From positions 629 through 64,628 of the forward strand of contig CANRKG010000005.1 of assembly GCA_947631155.1 (NCBI GenBank): a stretch of DNA of 64,000 nt, in the 5' to 3' direction. Shown piece after piece: positions 35,680 to 61,251 of this stretch. The notes under the pieces were generated by a model that saw nothing but the letters and a program-made list of their open reading frames with translations, was not told where the DNA came from and ran no database searches. A program made the translations under genes and the position numbers. Origin of the DNA: an uncultured Bacilli bacterium. GTDB lineage: Bacteria > Bacillota_I > Bacilli_A > RF39 > UBA660. How positions within the stretch are numbered: position 1 is the first letter of the stretch; each line of letters opens with the position of its first letter.

Positions 35680-37242
35680 ATGATTTTTAGAAAACCATAT
35701 GCATTCCTAATTAAAAATTTTAGGAAAATACATATTTTATTATTTATATTATGCTCATTCTTATTATATAAAACTATGCAGTTAGTTGGATTTGTCAAAG
35801 ATTTTATTACTTATGTTAGTTATGATCCTTATTTAGAACCAATTACTAAGTATACAAGCGTTATATTTTATATTTTTATTCTTAGTGTAATAGTAATATC
35901 TATTACTTTATTACTGTTATTAAGAAGAAAAAATAAACCCTGGATTTTGTATTTGATTCCAATTGTTACATATATATTTATTTTAGTTTTATTTATGTCA
36001 ATTCAAAATTATTTTGTTGGTTATGAAGGTGAAACTTCAACTGCTACGGCAAGAGCTTTTCGAGATTTCTTAAATATTGGAACTATACCGCAATATGTAA
36101 CACTAATTATTTTGTCAATCAGAATATTAGGTTTAGATTTAAAAAAATTTAGTTTTGGAAATGATGAAGAATTTTTAGAGTTAGATCAAAATGATAAAGA
36201 AGAAGTTGAAGTTAGTATTAATTTTGATAAACATATTTTTCAAAGACTTTTTAAAAAGACATTACGTTTATTAGGATATTTTTATCAAGAACATAAACTG
36301 ATTGTTAATATAGTATTTGTTTTAGTTATGATATTTTTAATAGGTTCATCAGCCTTATATATTATGAATCATAAACCAGTAGCAGAAACAAAAGTTTTAA
36401 ATGCTAATGGCTATTCAATTTCTGTAAATGAAAGTTATTTTACTAATTTAGATAAGATGGGGAATATTTTAGAACAAGATAGTAACTTTGTAGTGTTAAA
36501 TTTAACTGTTAAAAATAATAGTTATAAAAGAAAATTAAATATGTCTAACTTTCATTTAGTAAATGGTAAACATGATATAGTTTTTTCTGGAAGTACTTAT
36601 AGTAAATATTTTACTGATATAGGTAAAGAATATAAAGTTAGAGATTTTGAAGCAGGTGAAGAAAGAACTTTTGCTTTAATATTTAAGGTTGATAAAAAAT
36701 TATCAAAAAATAACTTTGTTTTATACTACCAGCAATATCAATCATATAAAAATATTTATTTAAGAAAACTTAAGTTAAATTTAAAAGAAATTTCTACTAT
36801 AGTTAAAAATCCTTCTAAAAATATTAATGAAGAATTAATTGTAACTTATCCTAATGGTACTAAGAAAAATATGATTTTTGAAACTGTAAATATAGTTGGT
36901 GAAACTACTTATAGAAAAGAAACTTGTGATGAAGATCAAAATTGTTTTATCGATACATTTGATATAAAACCTTTAGGAAATTATAAGGTATTACAAATTA
37001 ATTTTGCATCAGATGACTTTGAAGGGGAAGAATTGATTGACTTTTCTATTAATTATGGTAAAATTAGATATATAGATAATGAGAATATAACACGAGAGTT
37101 AAAGATAGAAGATGCAACAGATAATGCAGAATACTTAGGAAATTACTTGTATATTAAAATACCAACTAATTTAGAAACTGCTAAAAGTATAGAATTTATT
37201 TATACATTAAGAAATCAACAATATAGTTATAAAATTAAATAA
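35680..37242 (+). CDS. Polytopic membrane protein with C-terminal DUF4352-like beta-sandwich domain; first gene of the cluster
   Basis: Very strong RBS AGGAGGAGGGG. About five TM segments, then NFVVLNLTVKNNSYKRKLNMSNFHLVNGKH, which is typical of DUF4352-type domains (judged by eye). Confidence 0.6.
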   Translation: MIFRKPYAFLIKNFRKIHILLFILCSFLLYKTMQLVGFVKDFITYVSYDPYLEPITKYTSVIFYIFILSVIVISITLLLLLRRKNKPWILYLIPIVTYIFILVLFMSIQNYFVGYEGETSTATARAFRDFLNIGTIPQYVTLIILSIRILGLDLKKFSFGNDEEFLELDQNDKEEVEVSINFDKHIFQRLFKKTLRLLGYFYQEHKLIVNIVFVLVMIFLIGSSALYIMNHKPVAETKVLNANGYSISVNESYFTNLDKMGNILEQDSNFVVLNLTVKNNSYKRKLNMSNFHLVNGKHDIVFSGSTYSKYFTDIGKEYKVRDFEAGEERTFALIFKVDKKLSKNNFVLYYQQYQSYKNIYLRKLKLNLKEISTIVKNPSKNINEELIVTYPNGTKKNMIFETVNIVGETTYRKETCDEDQNCFIDTFDIKPLGNYKVLQINFASDDFEGEELIDFSINYGKIRYIDNENITRELKIEDATDNAEYLGNYLYIKIPTNLETAKSIEFIYTLRNQQYSYKIK

Positions 37243-37254
37243 GGAGATTTTGTT

Positions 37255-39027
37255 ATGAAGATTAATAAGAAAAGACAGAAACAAATAAAAGCTATATGTA
37301 TTTGTATAATTGTAGTTTTAGTAATATGGTTTGTGATATTAAGCCCAATACTTAAATTTAAAAAAGATGAAAAAACTGTTGAGGATGCTGCGAAAAGATA
37401 TTATGAAATTAACAATGGACAATTGCCAACAGGAAAGAAAATAAAAACAGTTTCTTTACAAACATTATATGAAAAGAAATTTATTGAAGAAGATATACGA
37501 GCTTCCTATACTAATAAAGTATGTGATAGTAAAAGTTCATGGGTAAAAGTTAAACAACAAGATAATGATTATAAATATTATGTTTATCTAGATTGCGGAT
37601 TATTTAAATCTAAAGTTGATCATACTGGTCCTCAGATAAAATTAAAAGGTCAAGATGAAGTAACTGTAAATAAAGGAGAAACTTATAAAGATTCTGGAAT
37701 AGATAGCATTACAGATGATACTGATGGTAAGATAGATATTAGTAAAGTTGAAATTAATGATAAAAAATTAGATACAAGTAAAGTAGGAACTTATGAGATT
37801 AGTTATAAAATAAAAGATAGTTTTAATAACGAAACAATAAAAATTAGAACAGTTAAAGTAGTAGAAACTTTAAATCATATTGTAGAAAAAGATACTAAAG
37901 GTAGTAAAGTTTATAAAGGTACTCAAGATAGTAATTATGTTAAATTAGATGGTATTCTATTTAAAATAGTTGGCGAAAATGAAGATGGAACTATTAAATT
38001 AGTTAGTTCTACTAATTTAGCCGCAGTAAATTATGATGGAGTTCAAGAATGGTTGAATGATTATTTTTATGAAAAATTAAGTGATAGTGCTAAAAAATTA
38101 ATTCAAAAAAGTAAATGGTGTAATGAAAAAGTTACTGATGCAAATCAATATACAACATGTAATGAATATAGTAAGAAAACTAATGTAGGTCTTTTATCAA
38201 TTGCTGATATTAATAATTCCAAAGCAGAAGATGAAACTTATAATATAGATATTAGTAACGTTTTATGGTTAGCTAATGCCAACGATAGCAAAACCAATTG
38301 GTCAATGAATTATGGTGAATATGTTGCAGAAAAAACAAGTTCTAATATACCAGCTAGTCCAGTTATTAATATAATAAAAGATACTATCGTTACTGAAGGA
38401 AATGGGTCGTTTTATAATCCATATATCTTAAAAGGAAACAAAAAGACTTTAAAAGCTGGAGAAAAAATATCAGAAGCCAGAGTAGGAGAATATATTTCAT
38501 ATTCTGGATATAGTTGGAGAGTAGAAAGCATAGAACAAGATGGAACTACTAAGATAGTAATGACAGGAATAGTTAATTATAATGGTGATAATTACTATAC
38601 AAGATTTGGTAATGACTCAAAACCATATTATAAACCGTCTTTAAAAAATAGTATTGCTTATAATATAACAAATGATGTAGTTGAATATGTCAAAACAGGA
38701 GTCTTCCAAAAGAAAAAAATAGATGTAGCCAATTATACAAAAACAATAGGATATTTAAAAGATAGTAAGAAAAATAATTATAATATAAAGTTGACAATCC
38801 CAAGTATGTATGACTTATTTAGTTATAGCTCGGATGTTGATTATTGGTATAGAGATTATTCAGAAGATGCTTCTAAATGTTGTTATACACGTTATGGAAA
38901 AGTTATTTGTGATACATATAGTGGAGATTATTTATATGGAATTAAAATAGAAGGATATTTAAAGGAATCTATTCAAGTAAAAAGTGGACAAGGAAATTTA
39001 GATGATCCATATGTAATTGCAAGTTAG
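37255..39027 (+). CDS. N-terminally anchored surface protein: pilin-like head, DUF5011-like Ig domain, two copies of a ~190-aa module
   Basis: After the TM anchor: AAKRYYEINNGQLPTGKKIKTVSLQTLYEKKFI (ComGC/pseudopilin-like alpha-beta loop). Ig-like block HTGPQIKLKGQDEVTVNKGETYKD...GTYEISYKIKDSFNNE. Modules end in GNGSFYNPYILKG and GQGNLDDPYVIAS. Paralogue of 59918. Confidence 0.65.
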   Translation: MKINKKRQKQIKAICICIIVVLVIWFVILSPILKFKKDEKTVEDAAKRYYEINNGQLPTGKKIKTVSLQTLYEKKFIEEDIRASYTNKVCDSKSSWVKVKQQDNDYKYYVYLDCGLFKSKVDHTGPQIKLKGQDEVTVNKGETYKDSGIDSITDDTDGKIDISKVEINDKKLDTSKVGTYEISYKIKDSFNNETIKIRTVKVVETLNHIVEKDTKGSKVYKGTQDSNYVKLDGILFKIVGENEDGTIKLVSSTNLAAVNYDGVQEWLNDYFYEKLSDSAKKLIQKSKWCNEKVTDANQYTTCNEYSKKTNVGLLSIADINNSKAEDETYNIDISNVLWLANANDSKTNWSMNYGEYVAEKTSSNIPASPVINIIKDTIVTEGNGSFYNPYILKGNKKTLKAGEKISEARVGEYISYSGYSWRVESIEQDGTTKIVMTGIVNYNGDNYYTRFGNDSKPYYKPSLKNSIAYNITNDVVEYVKTGVFQKKKIDVANYTKTIGYLKDSKKNNYNIKLTIPSMYDLFSYSSDVDYWYRDYSEDASKCCYTRYGKVICDTYSGDYLYGIKIEGYLKESIQVKSGQGNLDDPYVIAS

Positions 39028-39042
39028 TAAAGGAAATGTATT

Positions 39043-39804
39043 ATGAAGAGAATTAAGTATAAAAAACAATTAGTAATTTTATCTATTGTAATAATATTAT
39101 GTCTAATTTCTATTATAATTTTTAAACCCTATTATAAATCTAAAGATAGAGTGAGAAAAATAAAAAACTTTAATGAAAGTAAAGAAAATATAAAGCCACT
39201 TGGATGGTTAAGAGTTCAAGGAACTAATATTGATTTTCCAATTATGTATTACTATGATGTTGAAGATGTTGGAGATCCTACTTATGATTTAGGTTGGAGT
39301 TTTGATAATAATAGAAAATTAGCTAATAGAACAGTTATTTTATCGCATAATATGAGAAATGTTTCAAGTAAGCCTTTAATAGGAGATAAAGAACATGCGA
39401 GATTTGAGCAATTAATGGGATATATATATTATGACTTTGTAAAAGAAAATAAATATATTCAATATACAATAGATGGAAAAAATTATCTATTTAAAATATA
39501 TGGAGTATCTCTTCAAAAAGAAAAAGATATCGATTTAGAAAATCTAGACAAAGATGAGCTAGAAGATTATATAAAATATACTAAAGAACAGAGTTACTTT
39601 AAATTTGATATTAATGTTAATAAGAATGATAAATTAATAACATTAATTACATGTACAAGATTCTTTGGTAATAATGATTACTCATTTGTAGTGGATGCTA
39701 GGAAAGTGAGAAAAACTGAATTAATTAAGAATTATAAAGTGACAGAAAACGATAGTTATAACAAAATTAAAAAAATGTTGGAAGGAGATGATAAAAATGA
39801 ATAA
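39043..39804 (+). CDS. Sortase family transpeptidase (class B-like)
   Basis: N-terminal TM segment, LGWLRVQGTNIDFPIMY, His in VILSHNM, catalytic TLITC motif and downstream Arg (VVDARKV). Confidence 0.8.
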   Translation: MKRIKYKKQLVILSIVIILCLISIIIFKPYYKSKDRVRKIKNFNESKENIKPLGWLRVQGTNIDFPIMYYYDVEDVGDPTYDLGWSFDNNRKLANRTVILSHNMRNVSSKPLIGDKEHARFEQLMGYIYYDFVKENKYIQYTIDGKNYLFKIYGVSLQKEKDIDLENLDKDELEDYIKYTKEQSYFKFDINVNKNDKLITLITCTRFFGNNDYSFVVDARKVRKTELIKNYKVTENDSYNKIKKMLEGDDKNE

Positions 39805-42800
39805 AAAATGGGGTAAAAAATTATTGCTAGTATTATTAATTATAAGTGTAATTTACTTTCCTAATGATATCCAGGCAAAGAAAAATAAATGCACAGTGGA
39901 TCCTGAGGATTTCTTTGATGTTAGCAAATATAGTACAAACCCATTAACAGGTTATAGCAACGGACATTATATATATGGCATCAATGCTAGAACAATTAAA
40001 ATTACAGTTAGTAAACCTAAAAGATATCAGGTATTTATCTATAAAGGAGCAATTGATACAGTGTCTGGTGCTGAACACTTGGCTGGACTTAGCCAAGGTG
40101 ATTTAAATAAAATGTATGGTAAAGGAAAAATCTCAAAAACGAAAATAGAAGTTGGAGATTTAGAAAAGGATTATACAATTAAAGTAGAACCTGGTACTGA
40201 GGCTTTAGTAGTAGTTGTATATAAAGGAGATAAAGATACTAAAGCAACACAATCTGACAAATGTAACAATACAACAGGAAAAAGTAAAGACGGTTGTTGT
40301 ATTGGATATTTTAAACAAAATGGTGAGGATGATGAAATTTATGGAACGGGTGCTAGTACATTTGTTGAAAATCCAACTGATAATTTTTTAGTTCCGAATT
40401 TACGTGCTGTAGGTGCTAGTACTTCAGGGGTTAGTAATGCATGTACTAATGCTTATAATGGGATATTCCAACCTGTTAATAAAGAATATGAAAAAGATGC
40501 AGAAAATTTTACTATTAAAAACTGGAGCGGAGATTTAAATACATGGAGAAATGAATATTTTAATAAAATGTTTCCTTATTGTACCACTCCTTCTGTTGCA
40601 TTTAACTTAAGTGATCATAATATTAAAATTATTGCTAATAAATTGTTACGTATGTTTAAATACATTTCACAATTACAAAGCGTTGGTTCGGCTGGTTATG
40701 ATAGTATAAATGCTGAAATTAATAGGATAAAAGATGATTTAGAAAATAGACATCTTTCAAATAATTATTATATAAAAGATAATGGAACTTCTATTGGTAA
40801 CTCTAATATTTTAAATTCTTCTTTACAATGTAATTATAGTGATCTTGTATATAATAAAACAGAAAAAAAAGTAGAATATAAAGATGGTTCAGGAGAGTCT
40901 GATTATTTGTATGCTGAAAAAGGTAGTATTAGTGTTGATATAAAAACACTTTCATCAAAAAAACGCACATATAAAGTTTGTGATACAGCATGTTATGAAC
41001 ATTTAAAAGTGGTTTATAGTCCACCACAAGTTGTTAAAGCTGGATTATGTTTCCAATATAAAGTAACAATCAAGAGTGTAACTGATTGTGGAGCTGATTT
41101 TAATGAAGGATTAAAAGATATATTATCTAAACCTCCAGGTGATCCTAACGGTATGTATCCTGAAATGTGTTCAGCAACACCTATCTGTGATGGTAATGAA
41201 ACTAAAGTTTCAGCAGGACCATCTAAAGATTTTGATGATTGTGTATCTACTTGCGACGGAGGTGAATATACACAATCTTGTATAAATAAATGCTATAAAA
41301 AAGTTTATGGTAATACTTCTAAAAAATCTTCTAGTGACAATAAAATTCAAAAAAGTAGTAATGAAAATAAAACAGATAATATTAAAGAAGTGAATCCATC
41401 ATTTATGATACAAAATAATAATAATAACAGTAATTTAATTAACATTGCAAATATTAGTAAATTAAAAAGTGATGATGATTTTACAGAATATTTTGATGGA
41501 AATAAATTACCTGGAGAATATAAAAATATATGTGGTTCTAACAAAAACATAAGAGACCATATTGATGATTGCGCAGAATATTTCTTTACAGCAAAATCAG
41601 TTAAGCCATATGGACATTATAGCTGTAATAATAATGGACATTGTTCTTGGAATCAAACTGCTACAGCTACAAATTGTAATTCTAGTTATTATGGTTGTGA
41701 AATTGCTCGAGTAGCAACTTATTATGCTAGAGATTTGGAGTCTACTAAAATGTTAATCAAAAGGTTAATAGGAGGATCTTTAGCAGGTTTAAGTAGTGAA
41801 GATAGACGATATATAGTGAATAATAATGGAATATTAGTTCAACGAAAAAATTCTGGCTGGTATTGTCAAATGTCTTGTTCACATCATGGTTGTACTAATG
41901 ATAAGGCATTAACTAGTGGTGATTATACAGATTTAATGAATGAAAATTTAAAAGCAATAAATCAAGCTCTTCGTGATTGTAATGAATTAGTAGTAGGTAA
42001 TAATAATGATCCATGTGAGCCTTCTAACGGAGTAAAAACTTCTACCTTTGACATAAATATAAAGACTAATACTAAACGTGGTAGTGATGAACCTGGAACA
42101 AAAACTGGTAGTAATAAATTACATTCTTCTCTTGTTGATCCACCTGAACCTAATTGTCCTGATGACAAAATGTTTGTTAAAGCGGATAAAAACGATTCTT
42201 CTTCATCACTAAATGGTATTTTTGGAACTTGTTATAATGAAGTAGGTCAAGATGATAATGGTAATAGAGTTCATTATCAAACTACGATTACTTTCCCAGG
42301 ATCATGGATTGATTTAAAAACAGGTGAAGTTTTCTATGATTGTAAAGAGGAAGGTTATAAGAATAAAGTTCAATATTACTGTACACCATTTGATTCATTT
42401 AATGTAAATACTAATTGGTGGAACTGGGCTGTTAATAATGAGTATAATGGTTCTGCACCAGCACCAGATGATTGGAATATAGAAGCACATTTAGGATTCG
42501 TAAATGAAAGAAATGAAGATGTTGGTTTTGGTAAATATAAATGGCATATTGGTTTCCAATGTTTCTATTCTCAATTGGATGAAATAATAGGATCACCACT
42601 ACCACCACCAGATGGTCCATCATGTTATCGTGGTAAAGAAGGAACTTCAGAAGAATGTCCTGATGATTCTGATAAGAAGGGTACATCCACAAAAGTAAAT
42701 TATGATATTAGAATAGTTGATTTAGAAAATTTATTTCCTAATAACAGATTACGTGGATTTAACTGGGGTGATGCTGCTCAATTAAAATCTACTGATCCAC

Positions 42801-50112: not shown

Positions 50113-50133
50113 AGAAGAAAAGAGGTGAGGCTT

Positions 50134-52219: not shown

Positions 52220-52582
52220 ATGAATTATTTAATTCCTGCTAATACAAAAAAAGGTCAATTAATAATGGGAATATTTAGACCTTTTGATTTAATACTATTT
52301 GGTACAGGTATACTTATTACAGTCATATTTATGGCGTTATTACCTTTAACTTCTACAGCTATAACAATAATTATATTATTACCAGCAATGATTACAGGTT
52401 TTTTGGTAGTGCCTGTACCGTATTATCACAATATTTTAAATGTTATCCTAGAATTAATTGAATTTTTTACTAATCAAAGGAATTATGAATGGAAAGGTTG
52501 GTGTATTAGAATTGGCGAAAACAGTAGAAAAAGGAAGAAGATCAACAGAGGATTGGCTACCAGTACGAGCAATCCAAAATAA
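52220..52582 (+). CDS. PrgI/TcpE/VirB3-like small two-TM protein
   Basis: IPANTKKGQLIMGIFRPFDLILFG followed by two TM segments resembles the Tn916 Orf17/PrgI family. Directly precedes VirB4. The last ~100 nt overlap the next ORF. Confidence 0.6.
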   Translation: MNYLIPANTKKGQLIMGIFRPFDLILFGTGILITVIFMALLPLTSTAITIIILLPAMITGFLVVPVPYYHNILNVILELIEFFTNQRNYEWKGWCIRIGENSRKRKKINRGLATSTSNPK

Positions 52583-54884: not shown

Positions 54885-56894
54885 ATGCCAATTTTTAGTA
54901 ACGAAGATAAAGATGCTAAGAAAAAAGGTCTTTCTAATGAAAATATAGATAAAGATAAAAAAAATATCTATCAAGCAGAAAAAAATGACCATAAAGCAGA
55001 AAAAAATGATTCAAAAAACAAAAATGATAAAAATAATGAATCAAATAAAAAAGCAGCAAAAACTGCTGCTAAAGGAGCTGCTAATGCTGCATTTGGACCA
55101 ATGGGTGGTAAAGCCGTTGATGCTATTTCTAAAACCAAAGCAGGAGATAAACTTTTAAATAAAGGTGGAGAATTACTAGGAAAAATTCCTGGTATATCTA
55201 AAGCTACTAAAAAATTAGATGATAGCGGAGCTTTAGATGCAGCTGATAAAGGAATGTCTGCAATGGGTGGAGGAGCAACTCCTGGAGTTGGAGCTACTAA
55301 TAATGCTGCTCAACAACAAGCTTCAACCAATGATGCGCCTGGTTTTTCAGGCTTTGGAAAAGGAAATTCTAAAAATAAAGGAGGTTTAGGTAAACCTTCT
55401 TCTTTGGATGGAGATAATTTAGAAAACCCTGATCAAATTGATAATAATGATAAACAAGGTGAAGGAGATTTTTCTGCTAATCTTTCAGGAACAGGATTTT
55501 TGCCTGGGGGAAAAAAAACATTACTCATTATTGGAGTAGTTTGTTTTATATTTTTATTTATGAGTGGTGGTATTCTTACTTCGATTGGTTCGGCAGATAA
55601 TAATGATGCTAAAAATGATATTGGAAATCCTGATAGGAAAGGTGCTAAAGGTACTAAATATGAAAGCCAAATAATAGATAATCCTAATAGTTCAGTAAAT
55701 GCAGGAGGAATTTGTACTTATGATATTAAAGGATCGACCAATGGTGTAAGTGTAACTAATTTTAATGAACAAGTTACAGATATAAAAGTTAGATTGATGC
55801 ATTCTAGTTTCTGTGATGGTACCGATAATGTTCCTATTGAAGGAGAGTCTTTAATTGATTTTGAAACTTATATTTTAGGAGTAGTTTATGCTGAAGTTGG
55901 TGGAGGTATGAATGAAGCTGAAGCTAAAACTCAAGCTATTGCGGCTAGAAGTTTTATTTTAGATCGTGCTATTAGAGGCGTCAATAAAGCTAATGGTGTA
56001 AAATTGGAAAATGAAGATGGACAGTGGGTATTACAAGTTCGAAATTGTGTTGCTGATCAAGTTTTTTGTAATCCAGATCAAGGTTGTTCTAAAAGAGGTG
56101 CTTCAGATAATCAATATCAAGATGTGTATTCAGGTATAAATAACATAATAACTTATAAGCCACCATTATCTCAAAATGCAAAATCTCGTCAATGGGTTGC
56201 AGAGACCACCGGGCAACTTCTTGTTAATAATAGTGGTTATATTGTAGGAACTAATTATGCATCTTCTAGGCAAAAAGAATGGAGAACTTGGGGTGCAATT
56301 TTAGATTATAAACAAGTCTTGTTGCAGTCTTATGGCTCTAATAAAGATATATATACAGCAAATTGCTCAGGAGGAGCAACTTCTACTGGTGATTATACTA
56401 CTTGGAAACAATATGGGGCTCCGTGGTCATCTATAACTTTAGGTAATAGTAGTGCTACTATCAATAATGCTGGTTGTTTAGCTACATCTATATCAATGTT
56501 AATTGCTAAATCTGGTGTAGCTACCTCTGTAGAAGGTGAATTTAATCCAGGTACTTTTGTTCAACAATTAAATAAGAGTGGGGGATTTGATGGAAGAGGT
56601 AATTTACAGTGGAATGTTGTTAGTAGTGCCGCTCCTAATTTTAAATATCAAGGAAAAATTAATGTTGCAAATGATTCTAGAAAAAATAAATTAGCAAGTA
56701 TTCAATCATTATTGAATTCAGGATATTATGTGGTTGCTGAAGTAAAAGGTAATACAGGACAACACTGGGTAGCTATTGATTCTGTTAATGGTGATACTGT
56801 TAATATGTTTGATCCTGCTAGTACTTCAACTAATATGTGGCAGCAATATAATTGGAAAAACACTAGTCGTTTAGCTTATTTTAAAGTAGTATAA
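54885..56894 (+). CDS. T4SS-associated cell-wall hydrolase: low-complexity N-terminus, TM, SpoIID-like domain, papain-fold Cys peptidase (C39/CHAP-like) domain
   Basis: YILGVVYAEVGGGMNEAEAKTQAIAARSFILDR (SpoIID/LytB pattern). C-terminal NNAGCLATSISML (Cys), GQHWVAIDSV (His) and MFDPAS (Asp). Confidence 0.7.
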   Translation: MPIFSNEDKDAKKKGLSNENIDKDKKNIYQAEKNDHKAEKNDSKNKNDKNNESNKKAAKTAAKGAANAAFGPMGGKAVDAISKTKAGDKLLNKGGELLGKIPGISKATKKLDDSGALDAADKGMSAMGGGATPGVGATNNAAQQQASTNDAPGFSGFGKGNSKNKGGLGKPSSLDGDNLENPDQIDNNDKQGEGDFSANLSGTGFLPGGKKTLLIIGVVCFIFLFMSGGILTSIGSADNNDAKNDIGNPDRKGAKGTKYESQIIDNPNSSVNAGGICTYDIKGSTNGVSVTNFNEQVTDIKVRLMHSSFCDGTDNVPIEGESLIDFETYILGVVYAEVGGGMNEAEAKTQAIAARSFILDRAIRGVNKANGVKLENEDGQWVLQVRNCVADQVFCNPDQGCSKRGASDNQYQDVYSGINNIITYKPPLSQNAKSRQWVAETTGQLLVNNSGYIVGTNYASSRQKEWRTWGAILDYKQVLLQSYGSNKDIYTANCSGGATSTGDYTTWKQYGAPWSSITLGNSSATINNAGCLATSISMLIAKSGVATSVEGEFNPGTFVQQLNKSGGFDGRGNLQWNVVSSAAPNFKYQGKINVANDSRKNKLASIQSLLNSGYYVVAEVKGNTGQHWVAIDSVNGDTVNMFDPASTSTNMWQQYNWKNTSRLAYFKVV

Positions 56895-56907
56895 AATGGA
56901 GGTTTAT

Positions 56908-57690
56908 ATGAAAAAATCCAACAAATCAATTATAATTTTTATAGTTTTATTAATTGTTCTTTCAACTATTTTTATGTTAACTATTGGAGTTAAGTTAATA
57001 AAAGATAATAAAAATAAAGATGTAATTATTGTAGGTAATGAGGCTATTTTTGAAAAACAAGATAATAAATGGGTTAATGTTTCATTTGCAAAGATAAATA
57101 ACTATAATTGGAAAAAATATTATACTTATATCGATAATCAATATTATGGCTATTATAGTTTATATAATAATGAAAAATGGTATTTATTTAAAGATAAAAA
57201 TCAAGCTGTTAATTATAATGGTGATTTATTAGCTTTAAATGGTGAGACTAGATATAAGGTTGTACAATTTAATTTACATGATATTGAAAATAAAGATTAT
57301 ATAACAAAAGTATTAAATGATAATAATATAAAAGATCACTCAGAACTTTCTAGTAGTTCTGTTGTATATGTTGATATAGATAATGATGGTGAAAAAGAGC
57401 CAATTTATACTATTAGTAACAAATTTTCTATGGAAGATGTTGGTAATACATATTTTAGTTTTATTTTTATGGTAAAGAATGATAAAATTATTTATTTATA
57501 TAAAAAATTAGAAAAAGATTTGGATAGTTCTTATAGTGGTTGTAAGCCATATATCAATAGTATTTTAGATGTAGATGAAGATGATCAATATGAAATTATT
57601 TTAAGTTGTGGATATTATAGTAATAATGGAATTAGACATAGCTTATATAAATTTAAAGAAGGTGTGTTTAAATTACTTGTTTCTAACTAG
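56908..57690 (+). CDS. Hypothetical membrane-anchored extracytoplasmic protein
   Basis: TM segment IIIFIVLLIVLSTIFMLTIGV. Two D-x-D-x-D-G/E-like acidic loops (DIDNDGEKEP, LDVDEDDQYE). ATG 56908 lies 5 nt after GGAGG. Confidence 0.55.
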   Translation: MKKSNKSIIIFIVLLIVLSTIFMLTIGVKLIKDNKNKDVIIVGNEAIFEKQDNKWVNVSFAKINNYNWKKYYTYIDNQYYGYYSLYNNEKWYLFKDKNQAVNYNGDLLALNGETRYKVVQFNLHDIENKDYITKVLNDNNIKDHSELSSSSVVYVDIDNDGEKEPIYTISNKFSMEDVGNTYFSFIFMVKNDKIIYLYKKLEKDLDSSYSGCKPYINSILDVDEDDQYEIILSCGYYSNNGIRHSLYKFKEGVFKLLVSN

Positions 57691-57731: not shown

Positions 57732-59894
57732 ATGAAACTTAAATTTACAGCTGACTCAGAAGATTTAACAATATTTATAATATTTGCTATTTTCTTATTA
57801 TATATAATATCAATAGGTGTAGTTAATTTAGCCTCCTTAGCAGAAAATGGTCATTTATCTGGATTAAATCCTTTTCCTGCTTTTTCAAAAGAATATATTA
57901 CATCTACTTTAGTATTTTACTTTATATCATTATTAGGATTAATTATTAGTGTTAGTTCTAGATTCTTTGAGATGGAAAAGGGAATTGGACTTAGTACTCA
58001 AAAGAAGAATAAAGGATATAGTCGTTGGGCTAAAGAAAAAGAGATGAAAGAAGAGTTATCTATGTTAACTCCACTTCAAAAAAAATCATCTGTTGCTGGT
58101 GTGCCACTTATCTTAAAAGAAAATGAAGCTTGGGTTGATAATGGTGAATATCATACTCTAGTAATTGGTGCTACTGGTAGTGGTAAAACACAAACAGTTA
58201 TTAAACCAACAGTAAAATTTTTAGCCAAGAAGGGTGAAAGTATTATTATTACTGACCCTAAAGGAGAAATTTATGAAGAAACAGCTGAAATGTTACGTGC
58301 TAGAGGATATCAGATTTTACTTCTAAACTTCCGAGATCCTCAAAATGGTAATGCTTGGAATCCTATGTCATTGCCTTATAAAGTTTACAAGAGTGGAAAA
58401 CAAGATAAAGCCATTGAGTTACTAGATGACTTAGCTTTAAATATCTTATATGATGAATCTAATGCCAATGCAGATCCGTTTTGGGAAAAAACTTCAGCCG
58501 ATTATTTTTCAGGACTTGCTTTAGGTTTATTTGAAGATGCCAAAGAAGAAGAAATAAATATAAATAGTATAAACTTGATGAGTACAGTGGGTGAAGATAA
58601 ATTTGGTGGTTCTACATATATTAAAGAATATTTTGGATTTAAAGATCCAGGAAGTGCCGCTGCTATAAATGCTTTTGGTACTATTACAGCACCAAGCGAA
58701 ACTAAAGGTTCAATTTTATCTGTATTTAAACAAAAAGTTAAATTATTTGCTTCACGTGAAAATTTAAGTGAGATGTTATCTTATAGTGATATTGATTTAG
58801 AATCAATTGGAAAAAGAAAAACAGCAGTGTTTATTGTTATTCAAGATGAAAAGAAAACTTACCACTCATTAGTTACTATTTTATTAAAACAAATTTATGA
58901 AACATTGATTGATGTTGCTCAAAAATGTGGTGGTAAACTTCCTATTCGTACTAATTTCTTATTAGATGAGTTTGCTAATATGCCACCATTAAAAGATGTA
59001 ACAACAATGATTACGGCAGCTCGTTCTCGTCAAATTAGATTTACTATGATTGTACAAAATTATGCGCAATTGAATAAAGTTTATGGAAAAGAAAATGCTG
59101 AAACTATCAAAGGAAATTGTGGAAATATTATTTACTTAATTAGTACAGAGCTAGCAGCTTTAGAAGAAATCTCTAAATTATGTGGTGAGGTTAAGAGTAA
59201 AAAAGATGATAAAACAGCTTCAACACCACTTGTCACTGTTTCTGATTTACAACGAATGGGACAATTTGAAACAATTATTTTACGTTTAAGAAAACAACCT
59301 TTCAAAACAAAAATGACACCAGATTTTAAAATAGATTGGGGTTATAAATATCCTAAAGCTACTTATCCTCATAGAGAAAAGAAAGATATTCATATGTTTG
59401 ATATTAAAGAATTTGTTAAAGGGGAAAAGAAGAAAAAGTTATTAGAAATGATGAATTCAACAGATGAACAACCTGGATTTGCACAAATGCCTCCAAATCC
59501 TTTTGGTATGCCGATGATGGATGGTAATAGAAGAGTACCAAATCCTAATAATCCATTCGCAGCTAATCAAGGCTTTAATCCATTTTCTTCTGATCCGTTT
59601 GGTAAACCAGCTGAACCAAGACAACAACTTGTTAATGATGATGATTCTAGTAATGAAGAGTTTAATGTCGATGAGTTAGTAAAGAAAATAGATGCCAAGA
59701 TTGCTGAATTAGAAAAAGAAGAACAACGAAATAAAGAATTGGAAGAGAAGAAAAAGGCGGAAAGTAAAACTGAAATTATTGGAGATAAGGAATCTGAAAT
59801 TGTTCATAAAGATAAAGTTATTGTTCAAAATTTAGATTTAGAAGATGATGATGACGATGATGATGAATTTTTTGATGATTTCTTTGATAATTAA
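57732..59894 (+). CDS. VirD4/TraG-type type IV coupling protein with P/N-rich and poly-Asp C-terminal tail
   Basis: Two N-terminal TM segments, Walker A GATGSGKTQ, Walker B NFLLDEFANM and RFTMIVQNYAQL motif. Confidence 0.85.
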   Translation: MKLKFTADSEDLTIFIIFAIFLLYIISIGVVNLASLAENGHLSGLNPFPAFSKEYITSTLVFYFISLLGLIISVSSRFFEMEKGIGLSTQKKNKGYSRWAKEKEMKEELSMLTPLQKKSSVAGVPLILKENEAWVDNGEYHTLVIGATGSGKTQTVIKPTVKFLAKKGESIIITDPKGEIYEETAEMLRARGYQILLLNFRDPQNGNAWNPMSLPYKVYKSGKQDKAIELLDDLALNILYDESNANADPFWEKTSADYFSGLALGLFEDAKEEEININSINLMSTVGEDKFGGSTYIKEYFGFKDPGSAAAINAFGTITAPSETKGSILSVFKQKVKLFASRENLSEMLSYSDIDLESIGKRKTAVFIVIQDEKKTYHSLVTILLKQIYETLIDVAQKCGGKLPIRTNFLLDEFANMPPLKDVTTMITAARSRQIRFTMIVQNYAQLNKVYGKENAETIKGNCGNIIYLISTELAALEEISKLCGEVKSKKDDKTASTPLVTVSDLQRMGQFETIILRLRKQPFKTKMTPDFKIDWGYKYPKATYPHREKKDIHMFDIKEFVKGEKKKKLLEMMNSTDEQPGFAQMPPNPFGMPMMDGNRRVPNPNNPFAANQGFNPFSSDPFGKPAEPRQQLVNDDDSSNEEFNVDELVKKIDAKIAELEKEEQRNKELEEKKKAESKTEIIGDKESEIVHKDKVIVQNLDLEDDDDDDDEFFDDFFDN

Positions 59895-59917: not shown

Positions 59918-61219
59918 ATGGTGAAGAATTTAGGTCCTAATAATAACCGATATAAGGATATACAACAAAAACTTAATGATAGTGAGAAAACAGAAGAATT
60001 AGATGCACAAATCGAAGAAGATGATTCTGAAGATATTGAAGTAGAAATAAAGAAAAATGAAAAATTAGCAAAAAAACAGTTTAGAGATAGATTGGTAAAA
60101 ATGATGTTTATTATTATTTTTGTAGTAGTAATAATTTTAGTTATAGGTTTTATTGTTTCGTTAGTTTCTAAGAAAGATTACACCTATACAGAAGTTGAAA
60201 ATATTCTTACTTCAGCTGCTAAATCATATTTTTCTGATCATAAATCTAAATTACCCGCAACTACATCACAAAAAGTAGAAATTAGTGATACTGTTTTAAC
60301 TGCGGGAGAATATATGAAACCTATCTCAGATTATATTAGCTCAGATACATGTAGTGGTAAAGTTCTTGTCCAAAAATCTGATGAAGAAGGATACTATTAT
60401 ATTGCTTATTTAGACTGTGGTGAAAATTATCAAACAATTGAATTATACAAAAAAATAGTTAATAATAAAAATATTGTCACTGATGGTTATGGACTTTATG
60501 CTTTAAATGATGGGTATGCTTATAGAGGAAAAGAAGTAAATAATTATGTTAAATTTTCTGATTCAGATTTATTATGGCGAATTATAAAAATTAATTCATC
60601 TAATGAAATGACTTTATTATCAGATGATACAACTATAAATGGTTTTACTTGGGATGATCGTTATAATAATTTAACAGAAACAAATTCAGGTATTAATAAA
60701 TATAAAAATAGTGAAATTAGTATATTTATTGATAAAATATATCACAATAATTTAGATGATGACTCAGATGATTCATATTATTTTAATGAAGAGTCTTTTG
60801 TCTTTTCTAAAAAAACCAAGGCAAAAATGCTAACATTTAAAGCATGTGTAGGAAATAGAAGTACTTCTGATACTACTCGTGATGGAAGTGCTGAATGTTC
60901 TGAAGTTGTTGATACTAAAGTCTCTTTATTACCAGTTTATGACTTTATAAATGCTAGTTTAGATCCTAATTGTACAACTGCTATTGCTCCAGATTGTCAA
61001 AATTACAATTATTTATCTCTTAATAACAGAAGTAGTTATTGGTTAGCTAATGGAGTTACTGAGAATACTTACCGTGTTTATGGTGTTGATGAAAGTGGCT
61101 ATATAACTGAACATTATGCTAATAATTTAAAAAGATTAAAATTAGTAATTCATCTGGGAGATGATGTAATGGTAGAATCAGGGAAAGGTACAAAGAAAAA
61201 TCCATATATTATTAGATAA
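59918..61219 (+). CDS. N-terminally anchored surface protein, paralogue of 37255 (pilin-like head plus one ~190-aa module)
   Basis: AAKSYFSDHKSKLPATTSQKVEISDTVLTAGEYM...YYYIAYLDCG aligns with the 37255 head (..YYVYLDCG). The module YVKFSDSDLLWRIIKINS... ends in GKGTKKNPYIIR. Confidence 0.65.
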   Translation: MVKNLGPNNNRYKDIQQKLNDSEKTEELDAQIEEDDSEDIEVEIKKNEKLAKKQFRDRLVKMMFIIIFVVVIILVIGFIVSLVSKKDYTYTEVENILTSAAKSYFSDHKSKLPATTSQKVEISDTVLTAGEYMKPISDYISSDTCSGKVLVQKSDEEGYYYIAYLDCGENYQTIELYKKIVNNKNIVTDGYGLYALNDGYAYRGKEVNNYVKFSDSDLLWRIIKINSSNEMTLLSDDTTINGFTWDDRYNNLTETNSGINKYKNSEISIFIDKIYHNNLDDDSDDSYYFNEESFVFSKKTKAKMLTFKACVGNRSTSDTTRDGSAECSEVVDTKVSLLPVYDFINASLDPNCTTAIAPDCQNYNYLSLNNRSSYWLANGVTENTYRVYGVDESGYITEHYANNLKRLKLVIHLGDDVMVESGKGTKKNPYIIR

Positions 61220-61251
61220 GTAATCTATAATTATTTAGATTACTTTTTTTT
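61218..61251 (+). terminator. Rho-independent terminator closing the cluster
   Basis: 10-bp stem aagtaatcta/tagattactt, 8-nt loop, then a T-run. Confidence 0.75.

What the first reader, a model, noticed from the sequence alone, without database searches (positions are those of the whole stretch)
35680..61251. 25.6-kb chromosomal cluster joining a Tad-type filament module to a Gram-positive T4SS module, with no DNA-processing genes
Seen in sequence. There are 22 same-strand ORFs with tiny gaps or overlaps. They start at a very strong RBS (35680) and end at a 10-bp-stem terminator (61218-61251).

Gene order: DUF4352-like membrane protein; pilin-like-anchored surface protein; sortase-B-like; 1,100-aa Cys-rich secreted protein; TadE-like; CpaB-like; TadA/CpaF ATPase; TadB-like; TadC-like; Flp-like 55-aa ORF; TadE-like; TadZ-like; two VirB2-like; VirB6-like; VirB3/PrgI-like; VirB4 (two ORFs); SpoIID plus Cys-peptidase hydrolase; unknown; VirD4 coupling protein; second pilin-like-anchored surface protein.

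Internal promoter-like sites lie just ahead of both candidate filament-subunit genes (47469-47496 and 49166-49195). I found no relaxase, integrase or recombinase, replication or partition gene, or prepilin peptidase in the window. The flanks are housekeeping genes (M29 and M23 peptidases; rhodanese, rmuC).

Established knowledge. Characterised monoderm T4SSs (Tn916, ICEBs1, pCW3 Tcp, pCF10 Prg) pair VirB4, VirB6, a hydrolase and a T4CP with a relaxase, and use surface adhesins rather than type IV filaments. A T4SS combined with an accessory type IVb pilus is known from diderm IncI plasmids (R64 thin pilus).

Inference. This looks like a hybrid monoderm machine in which a Tad-like fibre and a conjugation-like channel are co-expressed. 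It may have been repurposed for DNA uptake or export, contact-dependent protein delivery, or cell-cell attachment. I am not aware of a described system with this composition.
Basis: partly seen in the sequence, partly recalled or inferred. Interest (0 to 1): 0.92.

Follow-up and report, generated by a model that had tools for sequence, protein, structure and literature searches.

The report
Lineage-fixed conjugation-type secretion machine in RF39
An uncultured, small-genome gut Bacilli lineage (RF39-type) keeps at one fixed chromosomal site a 22-gene machine of the kind Bacillus plasmids use for conjugation, but with no DNA-processing or mobility genes nearby, which suggests the host has adopted it for some contact-dependent function of its own.

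Summary
The exceptions are both "TadE-like" labels and the "Flp-like" label, which remain untested or unsupported.

The claim that this composition is undescribed is wrong. Bacillus conjugative plasmids of the pLS20 family (pDSYZ) and the pXO2/pAW63 family (pBMB67) carry the same pairing next to a MOBP relaxase. That pairing is a CpaF/VirB11-type ATPase, two membrane proteins, small transmembrane proteins and, on pBMB67, a CpaB/SAF protein, together with VirD4, VirB6, VirB3 and a split VirB4. The literature calls the ATPase "VirB11" and the remaining genes "unknown".

What is new is the setting:
- The whole cluster, in the same gene order, occurs in at least 544 species-representative genomes of uncultured gut Bacilli/"Tenericutes" (RF39-type).
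- Its right flank (rhodanese-VTT-RmuC) is kept in about 50 loci. A conserved left flank is seen in the 4 loci that reach it.
- VirB4 is 81-95% identical across these genomes and is more conserved than RmuC in 50 of 50 loci.
- The 64-kb window holds no relaxase, integrase, tRNA gene or flanking repeat.

Best reading: a vertically inherited, host-adopted conjugation-type apparatus with a Tad-derived accessory module. Its substrate is unknown; DNA is the most likely candidate.

Novelty: new variant of a known kind. Interest 0.62.

The parts
35665..35675 (+). Shine-Dalgarno AGGAGGAGGGG ahead of gene 01
   Evidence: read in sequence
35680..37242 (+). gene 01: polytopic membrane protein with a weak DUF4352-like domain
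   Evidence: Pfam DUF4352 at 19.1 bits, below the cut-off. Four TM-like segments. Orthologue present in 38-39 loci, median 40% identity.
37255..39027 (+). gene 02: N-terminally anchored surface protein with a bacterial Ig-like domain; paralogue of gene 22
   Evidence: Pfam Bact_surface_Ig-like, 59.7 bits. Cross-hits with gene 22.
39043..39804 (+). gene 03: membrane-anchored sortase (TLITC active-site motif)
   Evidence: Pfam Sortase, 32.8 bits, above the cut-off. srtB model sub-threshold. No C-terminal sorting signal found in any cluster protein.
39788..43132 (+). gene 04: 1,114-aa secreted, Cys-rich (35 Cys), hypervariable protein; candidate adhesin or contact determinant
   Evidence: No family hit. 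Only 24-34% identity where detectable, yet a gene of about 3.3 kb always fills this slot. Large surface or adhesin genes precede the equivalent module on pBMB67, pLS20 and the Brevibacillus plasmid.
   Evidence: Pfam DUF5411, 164 bits. No profile similarity to gene 11 or to the plasmid counterparts.
43608..44411 (+). gene 06: CpaB/RcpC-like (SAF and beta-clip type) protein
   Evidence: TIGR03177 E = 1.8e-7 and RcpC E = 2.2e-5, both sub-threshold. tblastn to the pBMB67 SAF protein, E = 1e-19. hhalign to Ralstonia CpaB, E = 3.5e-4, including the shared GN..PG.Y.D motif.
44440..45753 (+). gene 07: PilT/VirB11/TadA-superfamily secretion ATPase
   Evidence: Pfam T2SSE, 96.8 bits. VirB11 and TadA models both sub-threshold. 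Best plasmid relative is pLS20-family pDSYZ, 37% identity. Median 82-85% identity across the lineage.
45769..46662 (+). gene 08: TadB-like platform membrane protein (distant T2SSF relative)
   Evidence: hhalign to Ralstonia TadB, probability 69.5%, E = 4e-5. hhalign to the Brevibacillus neighbour of the ATPase, probability 92%. tblastn to pBMB67, E = 2e-10. One of 30 distant homologues hits T2SSF. AF2 model is all-helical, pLDDT 84.8, with no PDB match.
46662..47444 (+). gene 09: second polytopic membrane protein in the TadC position
   Evidence: Assigned by position and topology only. No family or PDB hit. Weak similarity to gene 08.
47533..47700 (+). gene 10: 55-aa single-TM protein, candidate fibre subunit
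   Evidence: N-terminus MK(A/E)ATGELN.T is invariant in 29 orthologues. Only 2 of 29 give a weak class III signal hit. No E at +5.
   Evidence: No family hit. hhalign to pBMB67 DUF4320 not significant.
48161..49144 (+). gene 12: TadZ/CpaE-like cytoplasmic protein (receiver-like N-domain plus MinD/ParA-fold domain with degenerate Walker A, HAGATT)
   Evidence: AF2 model pLDDT 81.5. Foldseek matches to HypB, FlhG, ParA and BcsQ, and to two-domain IcmF. No sequence-level hit.
49221..49580 (+). gene 13: VirB2-like T4SS pilin A
   Evidence: 14 of 28 orthologues hit Pfam T4SS_pilin, best E = 1.4e-7. Paralogue of gene 14, hhalign probability 99%.
49669..50112 (+). gene 14: VirB2-like T4SS pilin B, with signal peptide and a variable N-terminal extension
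   Evidence: T4SS_pilin E = 2.4e-5. 12 of 18 orthologues hit the family. Orthologue lengths range 109-567 aa.
50125..52203 (+). gene 15: VirB6/TrbL-like channel protein
   Evidence: Pfam TrbL_4, 32.6 bits, above the cut-off. Six TM-like segments.
52220..52582 (+). gene 16: VirB3/PrgI/TcpE-like two-TM protein
   Evidence: Aligns to positions 2-97 of the fused Mycoplasma ICE VirB4 model NF045975 (E = 0.004). TcpE E = 0.1.
52458..53066 (+). gene 17: VirB4 N-terminal domain as a separate ORF (likely start at ATG 52485)
   Evidence: NF045975 positions 98-277, E = 3e-15. Called as 193 aa on metagenome contigs. The same split occurs in pBMB67 and in 114 loci.
53063..54853 (+). gene 18: VirB4 ATPase domain
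   Evidence: NF045975, 356 bits; conju_CD1110, 174 bits; P-loop_TraG and AAA_10. 81-95% identity in the 80 best genome loci.
54885..56894 (+). gene 19: membrane-anchored peptidoglycan hydrolase (SpoIID-like domain plus C39-like Cys peptidase domain)
   Evidence: SpoIID, 33.2 bits, above the cut-off. Peptidase_C39_2 E = 3.7e-4 on the C-terminal 168 aa.
56896..57690 (+). gene 20: N-terminally anchored extracytoplasmic protein of unknown family (VirB8-position candidate)
   Evidence: No Pfam or PDB profile hit. Conserved in position, median 36.5% identity.
57732..59894 (+). gene 21: VirD4-type coupling protein with an acidic C-terminal tail
   Evidence: T4SS-DNA_transf, 193.5 bits; TraG-D_C, 88 bits; TrwB_AAD_bind, 79 bits. 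34% identical to the 'CD1115 family' T4CPs of Bacillus plasmids.
59918..61219 (+). gene 22: second membrane-anchored surface protein, paralogue of gene 02
   Evidence: Cross-hits with gene 02. Present in 62-69 loci.
61218..61251 (+). intrinsic-terminator-like hairpin (10-bp AT-rich stem, 8-nt loop) followed by T8
   Evidence: read in sequence; below the scanner's G-C requirement

Best explanation
The cluster is a vertically inherited, chromosomally fixed version of the conjugation (mating-pair-formation) apparatus found on pLS20-type and pXO2/pAW63-type Bacillus plasmids. It has no adjacent relaxase, oriT or integration genes, and it is kept as a core locus by an uncultured, genome-reduced gut Bacilli lineage (RF39-type).

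Shown by tool results:
- An envelope and adhesion block: a membrane protein, two paralogous anchored surface proteins, a sortase, and a hypervariable Cys-rich 1,114-aa secreted protein.
- A Tad-derived assembly block: a CpaB-like protein, a hexameric-type secretion ATPase, one or two T2SSF-like platform proteins, a TadZ-fold protein, and small single-TM proteins.
- A monoderm T4SS channel block: two VirB2-like pilins, VirB6, VirB3, a split VirB4, a cell-wall hydrolase, and a VirD4 coupling protein.
- Lineage-wide synteny and strong conservation.

Inferred mechanism:
1. The hydrolase opens the peptidoglycan.
2. The ATPase and platform module drives a short fibre or piston made of the small TM proteins through the wall, and with the variable surface proteins makes contact with a partner cell.
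3. VirB4, VirB3, VirB6 and the VirB2-like proteins form the translocon.
4. VirD4 selects a cytoplasmic substrate and feeds it outward.

Because every characterised monoderm T4SS that has a VirD4 moves DNA, the most likely substrate is DNA. That would mean host-controlled chromosomal or mobilisable DNA transfer between cells, using a relaxase encoded elsewhere or an unconventional initiator. This last step is the weakest.
For: Gene content.

The same two modules occur on conjugative plasmids that carry MOBP relaxases: pBMB67 and pDSYZ of the pLS20 family.
- tblastn of window proteins against pBMB67 gives CpaB 1e-19, ATPase 6e-32, gene 08 2e-10, VirB4N 1e-13, VirB4C 1e-83 and VirD4 4e-69.
- The ATPase's best plasmid relatives are Bacillus plasmids.
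- Published descriptions: PMC8557374, PMC1196294, PMC9673590.
- VirB2-like genes next to virB6 are now reported as typical of Gram-positive T4SSs (bioRxiv 10.64898/2025.12.18.695078).

Fixation in the lineage:
- At least 544 species-representative genomes and at least 539 metagenome stretches hold close relatives.
- Gene order is identical in all 49 genome loci with full flanks and in all 28 long metagenome loci.
- The rhodanese-VTT-RmuC right flank is present in about 50 loci.
- The left flank DUF6568-o32211 is present in L087, L095, L099 and L104.

Selection: median identity is VirB4C 85%, ATPase 82-85%, VirD4 70% and gene 08 71%, against RmuC 80%, VTT 55% and rhodanese 43%. VirB4C exceeds RmuC in 50 of 50 loci.

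No mobility signals in the window.

Folds: the gene 12 model shows a receiver-like plus MinD/ParA-like fold. Gene 08 gives hhalign matches to TadB-type proteins.
Against: - Nothing shows that the machine is expressed or what it transports.
- A relaxase, oriT or prepilin peptidase elsewhere in the genome could not be searched for.
- Filament formation is doubtful. The 55-aa protein lacks the G/XXXXEY motif and the window has no A24 peptidase, whereas a stand-alone relative on a Brevibacillus plasmid has both.
- The TadC, TadE-like and VirB8-like assignments have no family or fold support.
- Cluster GC (0.27-0.33) is above that of the flanks (0.22-0.25), so an ancient horizontal origin is likely. 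That origin is compatible with later fixation but is not proof of host function.
- Presence in every member of the order was not established. The scans were capped, and only the 80 best loci of each were read.
Confidence: 0.55

Rival explanations
1. An ordinary, currently mobile integrative conjugative element (or a recent remnant of one) whose relaxase and integrase lie just outside the window.
For: - All T4SS parts are of conjugation type, and the closest characterised relatives sit on conjugative plasmids and Mycoplasma ICEs.
- Cluster GC is above that of the flanks.
- A PD-(D/E)XK 'transposase-family' gene lies 2 kb upstream.
Against: - The chromosomal right flank and the gene order are kept in dozens of species-level genomes. 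The left flank was seen in only 4 loci.
- The 35 kb upstream and 2.8 kb downstream are housekeeping genes, and metagenome contigs continue into YuzI, DUF3603 and a tRNA synthetase.
- There is no tRNA gene and no flanking repeat.
- VirB4 is more conserved than RmuC.
Confidence: 0.05
2. Two independent neighbouring systems: a Tad-like adhesion or DNA-uptake pilus and a separate T4SS, co-located but not working together.
For: - The Tad-like module exists alone on a Brevibacillus plasmid with no T4SS within 7 kb.
- Module order differs between RF39, pBMB67 and pDSYZ.
- Intergenic gaps holding the best promoter-like sites precede gene 10 and gene 13.
Against: - The pairing recurs in three unrelated settings: RF39, the pLS20 family and the pXO2/pAW63 family.
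- In pLS20 both modules lie in one conjugation operon (PMC8557374).
- In RF39 they are never separated.
- The T4SS-linked versions share the loss of the A24 peptidase and of the prepilin motif, which suggests the module has specialised for the T4SS.
Confidence: 0.12
3. A DNA or nucleotide import machine (functionally like H. pylori ComB, archaeal Ced/Ted, or Tad-dependent DNA uptake in Liberibacter) that feeds a lineage lacking de novo nucleotide synthesis.
For: - RF39 are reported to lack de novo nucleic-acid precursor synthesis (PMC13155120).
- Liberibacters, which also lack nucleotide synthesis, need Tad pili for DNA uptake (PMC8513845, listed).
- Archaeal Ced/Ted import DNA with conjugation-like parts (PMC9905601, listed).
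- There is no relaxase in the cluster.
- Housekeeping-level conservation.
Against: - A VirD4 coupling protein with TraG-D_C and TrwB_AAD_bind domains is a hallmark of export. From my own knowledge, ComB lacks one.
- No DNA-binding or nuclease component was identified in the cluster.
Confidence: 0.14
4. A contact-dependent protein-delivery or partner-attachment organ (interbacterial antagonism, or an epibiotic or host-attached lifestyle), as proposed for the T4SS and type IV pili of Saccharibacteria and for the Tad-like Kil system of Myxococcus.
For: - The hypervariable 1,114-aa Cys-rich protein, the variable pilin B extensions and two divergent surface paralogues look like evolving contact determinants.
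- The genome is reduced: one complete MAG is 1.52 Mb.
- A Tad-like apparatus kills prey on contact in Myxococcus (PMC8460266, listed).
Against: - No effector, toxin or immunity gene is recognisable in or next to the cluster.
- To my knowledge, no monoderm T4SS has yet been shown to deliver proteins alone.
Confidence: 0.14

Closest known systems
pLS20-family conjugation operon of Bacillus plasmids (here pDSYZ, NZ_CP030151; pLS20 genes 34-54)
   Same: - A large surface adhesin gene, then a small protein with an N-terminal TM segment, then a CpaF/VirB11-type ATPase (37% identical, the best plasmid hit), then two polytopic membrane proteins, then small TM proteins.
- These are followed by VirD4, VirB6, a VirB3-like gene, VirB4 and a cell-wall hydrolase.
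   Different: - pLS20 is a plasmid with a MOBP relaxase, oriT, and Rco/Rap/Phr regulation.
- No CpaB-like or TadZ-like gene is annotated there.
- The RF39 cluster is chromosomal, fixed in the lineage and has no relaxase in the window.
- The literature does not interpret the pLS20 module as Tad-like (PMC8557374).
pXO2/pAW63/pBT9727-type tra region (here pBMB67, NC_009841)
   Same: - VirD4, a small protein, TrbL, PrgI, a separate VirB4 N-domain ORF and the VirB4 ATPase.
- Plus a large surface protein, a small protein, a SAF/CpaB protein, an AAA ATPase, a T2SS/T4P/T4SS-family ATPase, two hypothetical proteins, a small protein and DUF4320.
- The same three-way VirB3 / VirB4N / VirB4C split.
   Different: - A plasmid with a MobP3 relaxase, partition genes and group II introns.
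- The module order is inverted.
- Identities are only 24-32%.
Mycoplasma ICE T4SS (NCBIfam NF045975, Mbov_0397-family VirB4)
   Same: It is the best-scoring VirB4 model for the RF39 protein (356 bits, against 174 bits for the clostridial CD1110 family). Three RF39 ORFs align colinearly along it. From my own knowledge, the host lineages are related (Mycoplasmatales and RF39, both in class Bacilli) and no canonical relaxase is known in mycoplasma ICEs.
   Different: - The score is below the family cut-off of 590 bits.
- The mycoplasma protein is a single fused polypeptide.
- From my own knowledge, mycoplasma ICEs are mobile through a DDE transposase and have no Tad-like ATPase module and no cell-wall hydrolase.
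Tad/Flp (type IVc) pilus systems (Caulobacter Cpa, Aggregatibacter Tad)
   Same: A CpaB/RcpC-like protein, a CpaF/TadA-superfamily ATPase, a distant T2SSF-like platform protein, a TadZ-like two-domain fold, and a very small pilin-sized protein.
   Different: No A24 prepilin peptidase, no G/XXXXEY motif, no recognisable TadE/TadF. As expected in a monoderm, no secretin or TadD.
IncI R64/TP114 thin type IVb pilus plus T4SS
   Same: An accessory type IV filament is encoded alongside a conjugative T4SS to help mating contact (PMC9045228, listed).
   Different: A diderm system with a type IVb pilus that has PilQ/PilS/PilV and a prepilin peptidase. It is plasmid-borne with a relaxase. No sequence relationship was tested here.

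Membership tests
Monoderm (Gram-positive) conjugation-type T4SS | VirB4-family ATPase | tested here: met
   P-loop_TraG, AAA_10 and DUF87 above their cut-offs. NF045975 at 356 bits and CD1110 family at 174 bits, both sub-threshold for the equivalog.
Monoderm (Gram-positive) conjugation-type T4SS | VirD4-type coupling protein | tested here: met
   T4SS-DNA_transf, 193.5 bits (cut-off 20.1); TraG-D_C; TrwB_AAD_bind
Monoderm (Gram-positive) conjugation-type T4SS | VirB6/TrbL polytopic channel protein | tested here: met
   TrbL_4, 32.6 bits (cut-off 27); six TM-like segments
Monoderm (Gram-positive) conjugation-type T4SS | VirB3/PrgI/TcpE-like small two-TM protein next to VirB4 | tested here: inconclusive
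   Colinear with the N-terminus of NF045975 at E = 0.004. TcpE E = 0.1. Topology and position fit.
Monoderm (Gram-positive) conjugation-type T4SS | Cell-wall hydrolase | tested here: met
   SpoIID, 33.2 bits (cut-off 23); C39-like domain E = 3.7e-4
Monoderm (Gram-positive) conjugation-type T4SS | VirB2-like pilin encoded next to virB6 | tested here: met
   T4SS_pilin hit in 12 of 18 and 14 of 28 orthologues. The window copies themselves are just below the cut-off (24.8 vs 26.6 bits).
Monoderm (Gram-positive) conjugation-type T4SS | VirB8-like (NTF2-fold) protein | tested here: inconclusive
   Gene 20 is the only candidate. It has no Pfam or PDB profile hit. Its structure was not predicted.
Self-transmissible conjugative element (plasmid or ICE) | Relaxase (MOB) and oriT | tested here: not met
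   No relaxase family hit in any of the 22 cluster proteins, the 8 other flanking ORFs scanned or the 20 largest upstream ORFs. The rest of the genome could not be searched.
Self-transmissible conjugative element (plasmid or ICE) | Integrase or recombinase, att repeats, tRNA target | tested here: not met
   No such family hit. No tRNA gene. No repeat of 13 bp or more across the boundaries.
Self-transmissible conjugative element (plasmid or ICE) | Variable presence and variable insertion site among related genomes | tested here: not met
   The same gene order in every locus read and a conserved right flank in about 50 of them. The left flank was seen in 4 loci. Within-species presence or absence was not tested.
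Tad/Flp (type IVc) pilus system | TadA/CpaF secretion ATPase | tested here: met
   T2SSE, 96.8 bits. Family-level models cannot separate TadA from VirB11: TIGR02788 at 115 bits and TIGR03819 at 104 bits, both sub-threshold.
Tad/Flp (type IVc) pilus system | TadB and TadC (T2SSF) platform proteins | tested here: inconclusive
   No Pfam or PDB hit. For gene 08: hhalign probability 69.5% to Ralstonia TadB and 92% to the Brevibacillus homologue; one of 30 distant homologues hits T2SSF. Gene 09 is assigned by position only.
Tad/Flp (type IVc) pilus system | CpaB/RcpC | tested here: inconclusive
   Consistent but sub-threshold: TIGR03177 at 30.7 bits vs cut-off 71; RcpC at 24.8 vs 28.8. hhalign E = 3.5e-4. 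tblastn to the pBMB67 SAF protein, E = 1e-19.
Tad/Flp (type IVc) pilus system | TadZ/CpaE (receiver-like plus atypical MinD/ParA ATPase) | tested here: inconclusive
   The fold matches this architecture. There is no sequence-level match to CpaE or to the plasmid AAA ATPases, and TadZ itself was not among the top 50 structural hits.
Tad/Flp (type IVc) pilus system | Flp prepilin with the G/XXXXEY processing motif | tested here: not met
   The invariant N-terminus is MK(A/E)ATGELN(L/M)T, with T rather than E at +5. Only 2 of 29 orthologues give a weak class III signal hit. Brevibacillus relatives do carry G/TVL(L/I)E and G/FGFIEY.
Tad/Flp (type IVc) pilus system | A24 prepilin peptidase (TadV/CpaA) | tested here: not met
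   None among the ORFs scanned in the window. Present in the stand-alone Brevibacillus module. The rest of the genome could not be searched.

The most novel reading that the evidence does not exclude
RF39-type bacteria, a prevalent uncultured and genome-reduced gut lineage, have turned a plasmid-type conjugation machine and its Tad-derived accessory module into a core cellular organ that no longer serves a mobile element. It would be used to take DNA, nucleotides or other macromolecules from partner cells, to exchange them with partners, or to attach to and feed on partners. That would make it a monoderm counterpart of the archaeal Ced/Ted importers or of the T4SS and type IV pilus dependence of epibiotic Saccharibacteria.
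Probability: 0.25. Interest if true: 0.85.

Novelty: new variant of a known kind. Interest (0 to 1): 0.62.

Why it matters
RF39 is a widespread gut lineage with no cultured members, small genomes and missing biosynthetic pathways, and how it lives is an open question. A 25-kb contact-type machine whose ATPases are more conserved than the neighbouring RmuC gene across hundreds of species is a concrete, testable clue to that lifestyle.

The comparison also shows that the "VirB11 plus unknown genes" block of the pLS20 and pXO2/pAW63 conjugation operons is a Tad-derived module. This bears on the current debate about whether, and how, Gram-positive conjugation systems build surface fibres.

Tried and rejected
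- **Large Cys-rich protein:** a metagenome scan with it found no relatives because it is too variable.
- **PDB profile searches:** searches for genes 08, 09, 12, 14 and 20 and for the diverse gene 08 alignment gave nothing significant.
- **Gene 08 structure:** Foldseek of the gene 08 model against the PDB gave no match at E <= 0.001. As far as I know, full-length T2SSF structures are scarce.
- **Gene 12 vs CpaE-type proteins:** hhalign against Ralstonia CpaE, the Brevibacillus 391-aa protein and the pBMB67 AAA ATPase was not significant. Only the Walker-A-like stretch lined up.
- **Genes 05 and 11:** they showed no similarity to each other, to DUF4320 or to the Brevibacillus pre-CpaB protein, so I dropped the 'TadE-like' label.
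- **Gene 14 vs pBMB67:** pilin B did not match the pBMB67 126-aa protein.
- **VirB4 split as a pseudogene:** considered and rejected, because the split is conserved in 114 loci and in pBMB67.
- **Internal promoters:** considered and set aside as unproven, because promoter-like matches occur at chance frequency.
- **Literature:** searches for RF39 together with T4SS, pili or conjugation found no description of this locus. No paper found interprets the pLS20 module as Tad-like.

Full report
**Observation.**
The window is about 24% G+C. From 35680 to 61219 it holds 22 + strand ORFs separated by small gaps or overlaps.
- A strong Shine-Dalgarno sequence, AGGAGGAGGGG (35665-35675), precedes the first ORF.
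- Right after the last stop codon an AT-rich hairpin (arms 61218-61227 and 61236-61245) is followed by eight T. The consensus scanner missed it because it demands three G-C pairs.
- Promoter-like matches in the region are no more frequent than in shuffled sequence (119 vs 113.5; 91 vs 89.9). The two 'internal promoters' are therefore unproven, although the 49166-49195 site is the best match in the region.

**What the genes are: T4SS half.**
Pfam and NCBIfam scans support the following.
- *VirD4 coupling protein:* T4SS-DNA_transf, 193 bits.
- *VirB4:* an ATPase whose best model is the Mycoplasma ICE VirB4 (NF045975, 356 bits).
- *VirB6/TrbL protein:* TrbL_4, above its cut-off.
- *Hydrolase:* a SpoIID-type domain plus a C39-like domain.
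- *VirB2-like genes:* two paralogous genes (hhalign probability 99%). Their orthologues hit Pfam T4SS_pilin in 12 of 18 and 14 of 28 cases.
- *Split VirB4:* three consecutive ORFs (52220, 52458 and 53063) align colinearly with the single 894-aa mycoplasma VirB4 model, as VirB3-like, VirB4 N-domain and VirB4 ATPase. The same split is seen in 114 related loci and in plasmid pBMB67, so it is not a pseudogene.

**What the genes are: Tad-like half.**
- *Gene 07:* a T2SSE-family ATPase (96.8 bits). Models cannot separate TadA from VirB11.
- *Gene 06:* CpaB/RcpC-like, sub-threshold but consistent.
- *Gene 08:* a distant T2SSF relative. Its AF2 model (pLDDT 84.8) has no PDB match.
- *Gene 12:* folds as a receiver-like domain plus a MinD/ParA-type domain with a degenerate Walker A, which is the TadZ/CpaE architecture.
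- *Gene 09:* sits in the TadC position, with no other evidence.
- *The two 'TadE-like' genes:* one is DUF5411 and the other has no family. Neither has any detectable link to pseudopilins.
- *The 55-aa ORF:* it has an invariant MK(A/E)ATGELN.T N-terminus but no glutamate at +5, and only 2 of 29 orthologues give a weak class III signal match.
- *Sorting signals:* no C-terminal sorting signal for the sortase was found in any cluster protein.

**No DNA-processing or mobility genes in the window.**
- The 20 largest upstream ORFs are housekeeping genes: BipA, DnaE, RluD, a CDF transporter, rhomboid, MltG, U32 peptidases, trigger factor, Lon, rubrerythrin and others.
- The right flank is rhodanese, VTT and RmuC. 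On metagenome contigs it continues into YuzI, DUF3603 and a tRNA synthetase.
- There is no tRNA gene, no Rfam match, and no direct repeat of 13 bp or more across the boundaries.
- The only mobile-type gene is a PD-(D/E)XK_2 gene at 32790-33659 on the minus strand.

**The composition is not unprecedented.**
- The VirD4 protein's best plasmid matches are Bacillus thuringiensis plasmids (34% identity). One of them, pBMB67 of the pXO2/pAW63 type, carries a MobP3 relaxase, VirD4, a small protein, TrbL, PrgI, a VirB4 N-domain ORF and VirB4. A few kb further on it carries a large surface protein, a small protein, a SAF/CpaB protein, an AAA ATPase, a T2SS/T4P/T4SS-family ATPase, two hypothetical membrane proteins, a small protein and DUF4320.
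- Six RF39 proteins match this region by tblastn, with E-values from 2e-10 to 1e-83.
- The ATPase's best plasmid match (37% identity) is on pDSYZ, a pLS20-family plasmid with a MobP2 relaxase. There the ATPase and two membrane proteins lie just upstream of VirD4, VirB6, a VirB3-like gene and VirB4.
- The pLS20-family paper lists gene 37 as 'putative VirB11' and genes 36 and 38-41 as unknown small or polytopic membrane proteins. It states that Gram-positive elements do not form pili (PMC8557374). The pAW63 papers likewise speak of VirB11, VirB4 and VirD4 (PMC1196294, PMC9673590).
- So the pairing exists on known conjugative plasmids with relaxases. What is under-recognised is that the 'VirB11 block' is Tad-derived.
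- A stand-alone relative on a Brevibacillus marinus plasmid has CpaB, the ATPase, two membrane proteins, pilins with G/TVL(L/I)E and G/FGFIEY motifs, and an A24 peptidase.
- The T4SS-linked versions (RF39, pDSYZ, pBMB67) lack both the peptidase and the motif. That argues against a canonical processed Flp pilus in them.

**The new fact: the cluster is fixed in a lineage.**
- VirB4 has thousands of close relatives in public metagenomes, and the top 120 clusters are all 86-95% identical.
- In one-genome-per-species GTDB contigs, at least 544 stretches encode a relative. The best 80 are 81-95% identical.
- All 80 come from gut MAGs labelled uncultured Bacilli, Tenericutes or Mycoplasmatota, 'Mycoplasma sp. 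CAG:877', or Candidatus Onthousia or Faecimonas, apart from a few that are evidently mislabelled bins. NCBI places Candidatus Onthousia in Bacilli incertae sedis. From my own knowledge these names correspond to GTDB order RF39.
- A metagenome scan with the ATPase gave at least 539 further stretches.
- tblastn of all window proteins against 160 loci shows genes 01 to 18 in the same order in every long metagenome locus, and genes 06 to 22 in the same order in all 49 genome loci with full flanks.
- The rhodanese-VTT-RmuC flank follows the cluster in about 50 loci.
- In L087, L095, L099 and L104 the genes DUF6568 and o32211 directly precede gene 01. The PD-(D/E)XK, M29 and M23 genes are therefore a local insertion in this window.
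- Median identities are: VirB4C 85%, ATPase 82-85%, gene 08 71%, VirD4 70%, VirB4N 70% and gene 09 68-70%, against RmuC 80%, VTT 55% and rhodanese 43%. VirB4C is more conserved than RmuC in 50 of 50 loci.
- By contrast the 1,114-aa Cys-rich protein is barely alignable (24-34%), although a gene of that size always fills the slot. Pilin B orthologues range from 109 to 567 aa because of a variable N-terminal extension.

**Interpretation.**
- The anatomy is that of a monoderm conjugation apparatus of the pLS20 and pXO2/pAW63 kind.
- The inheritance pattern is that of a core chromosomal operon under strong purifying selection on its motors, with fast-evolving exposed parts.
- I therefore read it as a host-adopted conjugation-type machine.
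- How the parts work together is inferred from homologous systems, not shown. The hydrolase would open the wall. The ATPase and platform module would push a short fibre or piston and, with the surface proteins, establish contact. VirB4, VirB3, VirB6 and the VirB2-like proteins would form the channel. VirD4 would recruit the substrate.
- DNA is the most likely substrate because of the VirD4 protein with its DNA-transfer domains. A relaxase elsewhere in the genome could not be looked for.
- Rival readings remain open: nucleotide or DNA scavenging in a lineage said to lack de novo nucleotide synthesis (PMC13155120); protein delivery or epibiotic attachment; and two independent neighbouring systems. 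An ordinary mobile ICE is largely excluded.

**Literature.**
Full-text searches found no paper linking RF39 to a T4SS, pili or conjugation. The RF39 cell-envelope study does not mention secretion, pili or conjugation, but it notes that sortases are present in RF39 and absent from the sister orders (PMC10868615). A 2025 preprint reports that VirB2-like genes next to virB6 are the rule in Gram-positive T4SSs. That fits genes 13 and 14.

**Verdict.**
- The 'hybrid never described' interpretation is only partly supported.
- The finding is best classed as a new variant of a known kind: a lineage-fixed copy of a plasmid-type conjugation machine, with no relaxase in the 64-kb window.
- Its interest lies in what it says about the biology of RF39 and in identifying the 'VirB11 block' of Bacillus plasmids as Tad-derived.

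Noticed in passing
window 32790-35588: A PD-(D/E)XK_2 'transposase-family' gene (minus strand) and the M29 and M23 peptidase genes lie between o32211 and cluster gene 01 only in this window. In L087, L095, L099 and L104, o32211 directly abuts gene 01. This is a local insertion at the cluster's left edge.
   Followed up: partly
window 49669-50112 and orthologues (e.g. L041:5839-7029, L153:14738-15964, L074:5827-7059): The second VirB2-like gene ranges from 109 to 567 aa among species. A variable N-terminal extracellular extension is fused to the conserved hairpin, as if an adhesin domain were carried on a pilin.
   Followed up: partly
window 39788-43132: The 1,114-aa secreted protein has 35 cysteines and is hypervariable between species (24-34% identity, often undetectable), while its neighbours are 43-85% identical. 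It may be under diversifying selection.
   Followed up: partly
window 52220-54853; L003:22912-25826: VirB3, the VirB4 N-domain and the VirB4 ATPase are three ORFs in RF39 and in pBMB67 but a single 894-aa protein in the Mycoplasma ICE model NF045975. ORFs 16 and 17 overlap by about 100 nt in different frames.
   Followed up: partly
L165:4211-11293 (Brevibacillus marinus plasmid NZ_CP034542): A stand-alone Tad-like module of the same layout keeps an A24 peptidase and G/xxxxE(Y) prepilin motifs. The T4SS-linked versions (RF39, pDSYZ, pBMB67) have lost both.
   Followed up: partly
window 35680-61219 vs flanks: G+C is 0.27-0.33 inside the cluster and 0.22-0.25 in the flanking housekeeping DNA, including the well-conserved RmuC gene.
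   Followed up: no
window 37255-39027 and 59918-61219: Genes 02 and 22 are paralogues. Both have an N-terminal TM anchor followed by a similar Cys-containing domain, and both end in G.G...(D/N)PY(V/I)I. They bracket the cluster.
   Followed up: no
window 15284-17344 and 29441-31597: Three U32-family peptidase genes lie in the housekeeping DNA upstream of the cluster.
   Followed up: no
L032, L066, L083: Contigs labelled Acidaminococcus fermentans, Muribaculaceae and Clostridia carry the RF39-type cluster at about 29-30% G+C, and L032 and L066 also have the RmuC flank. They are probably mis-binned or mislabelled RF39 contigs.
   Followed up: partly
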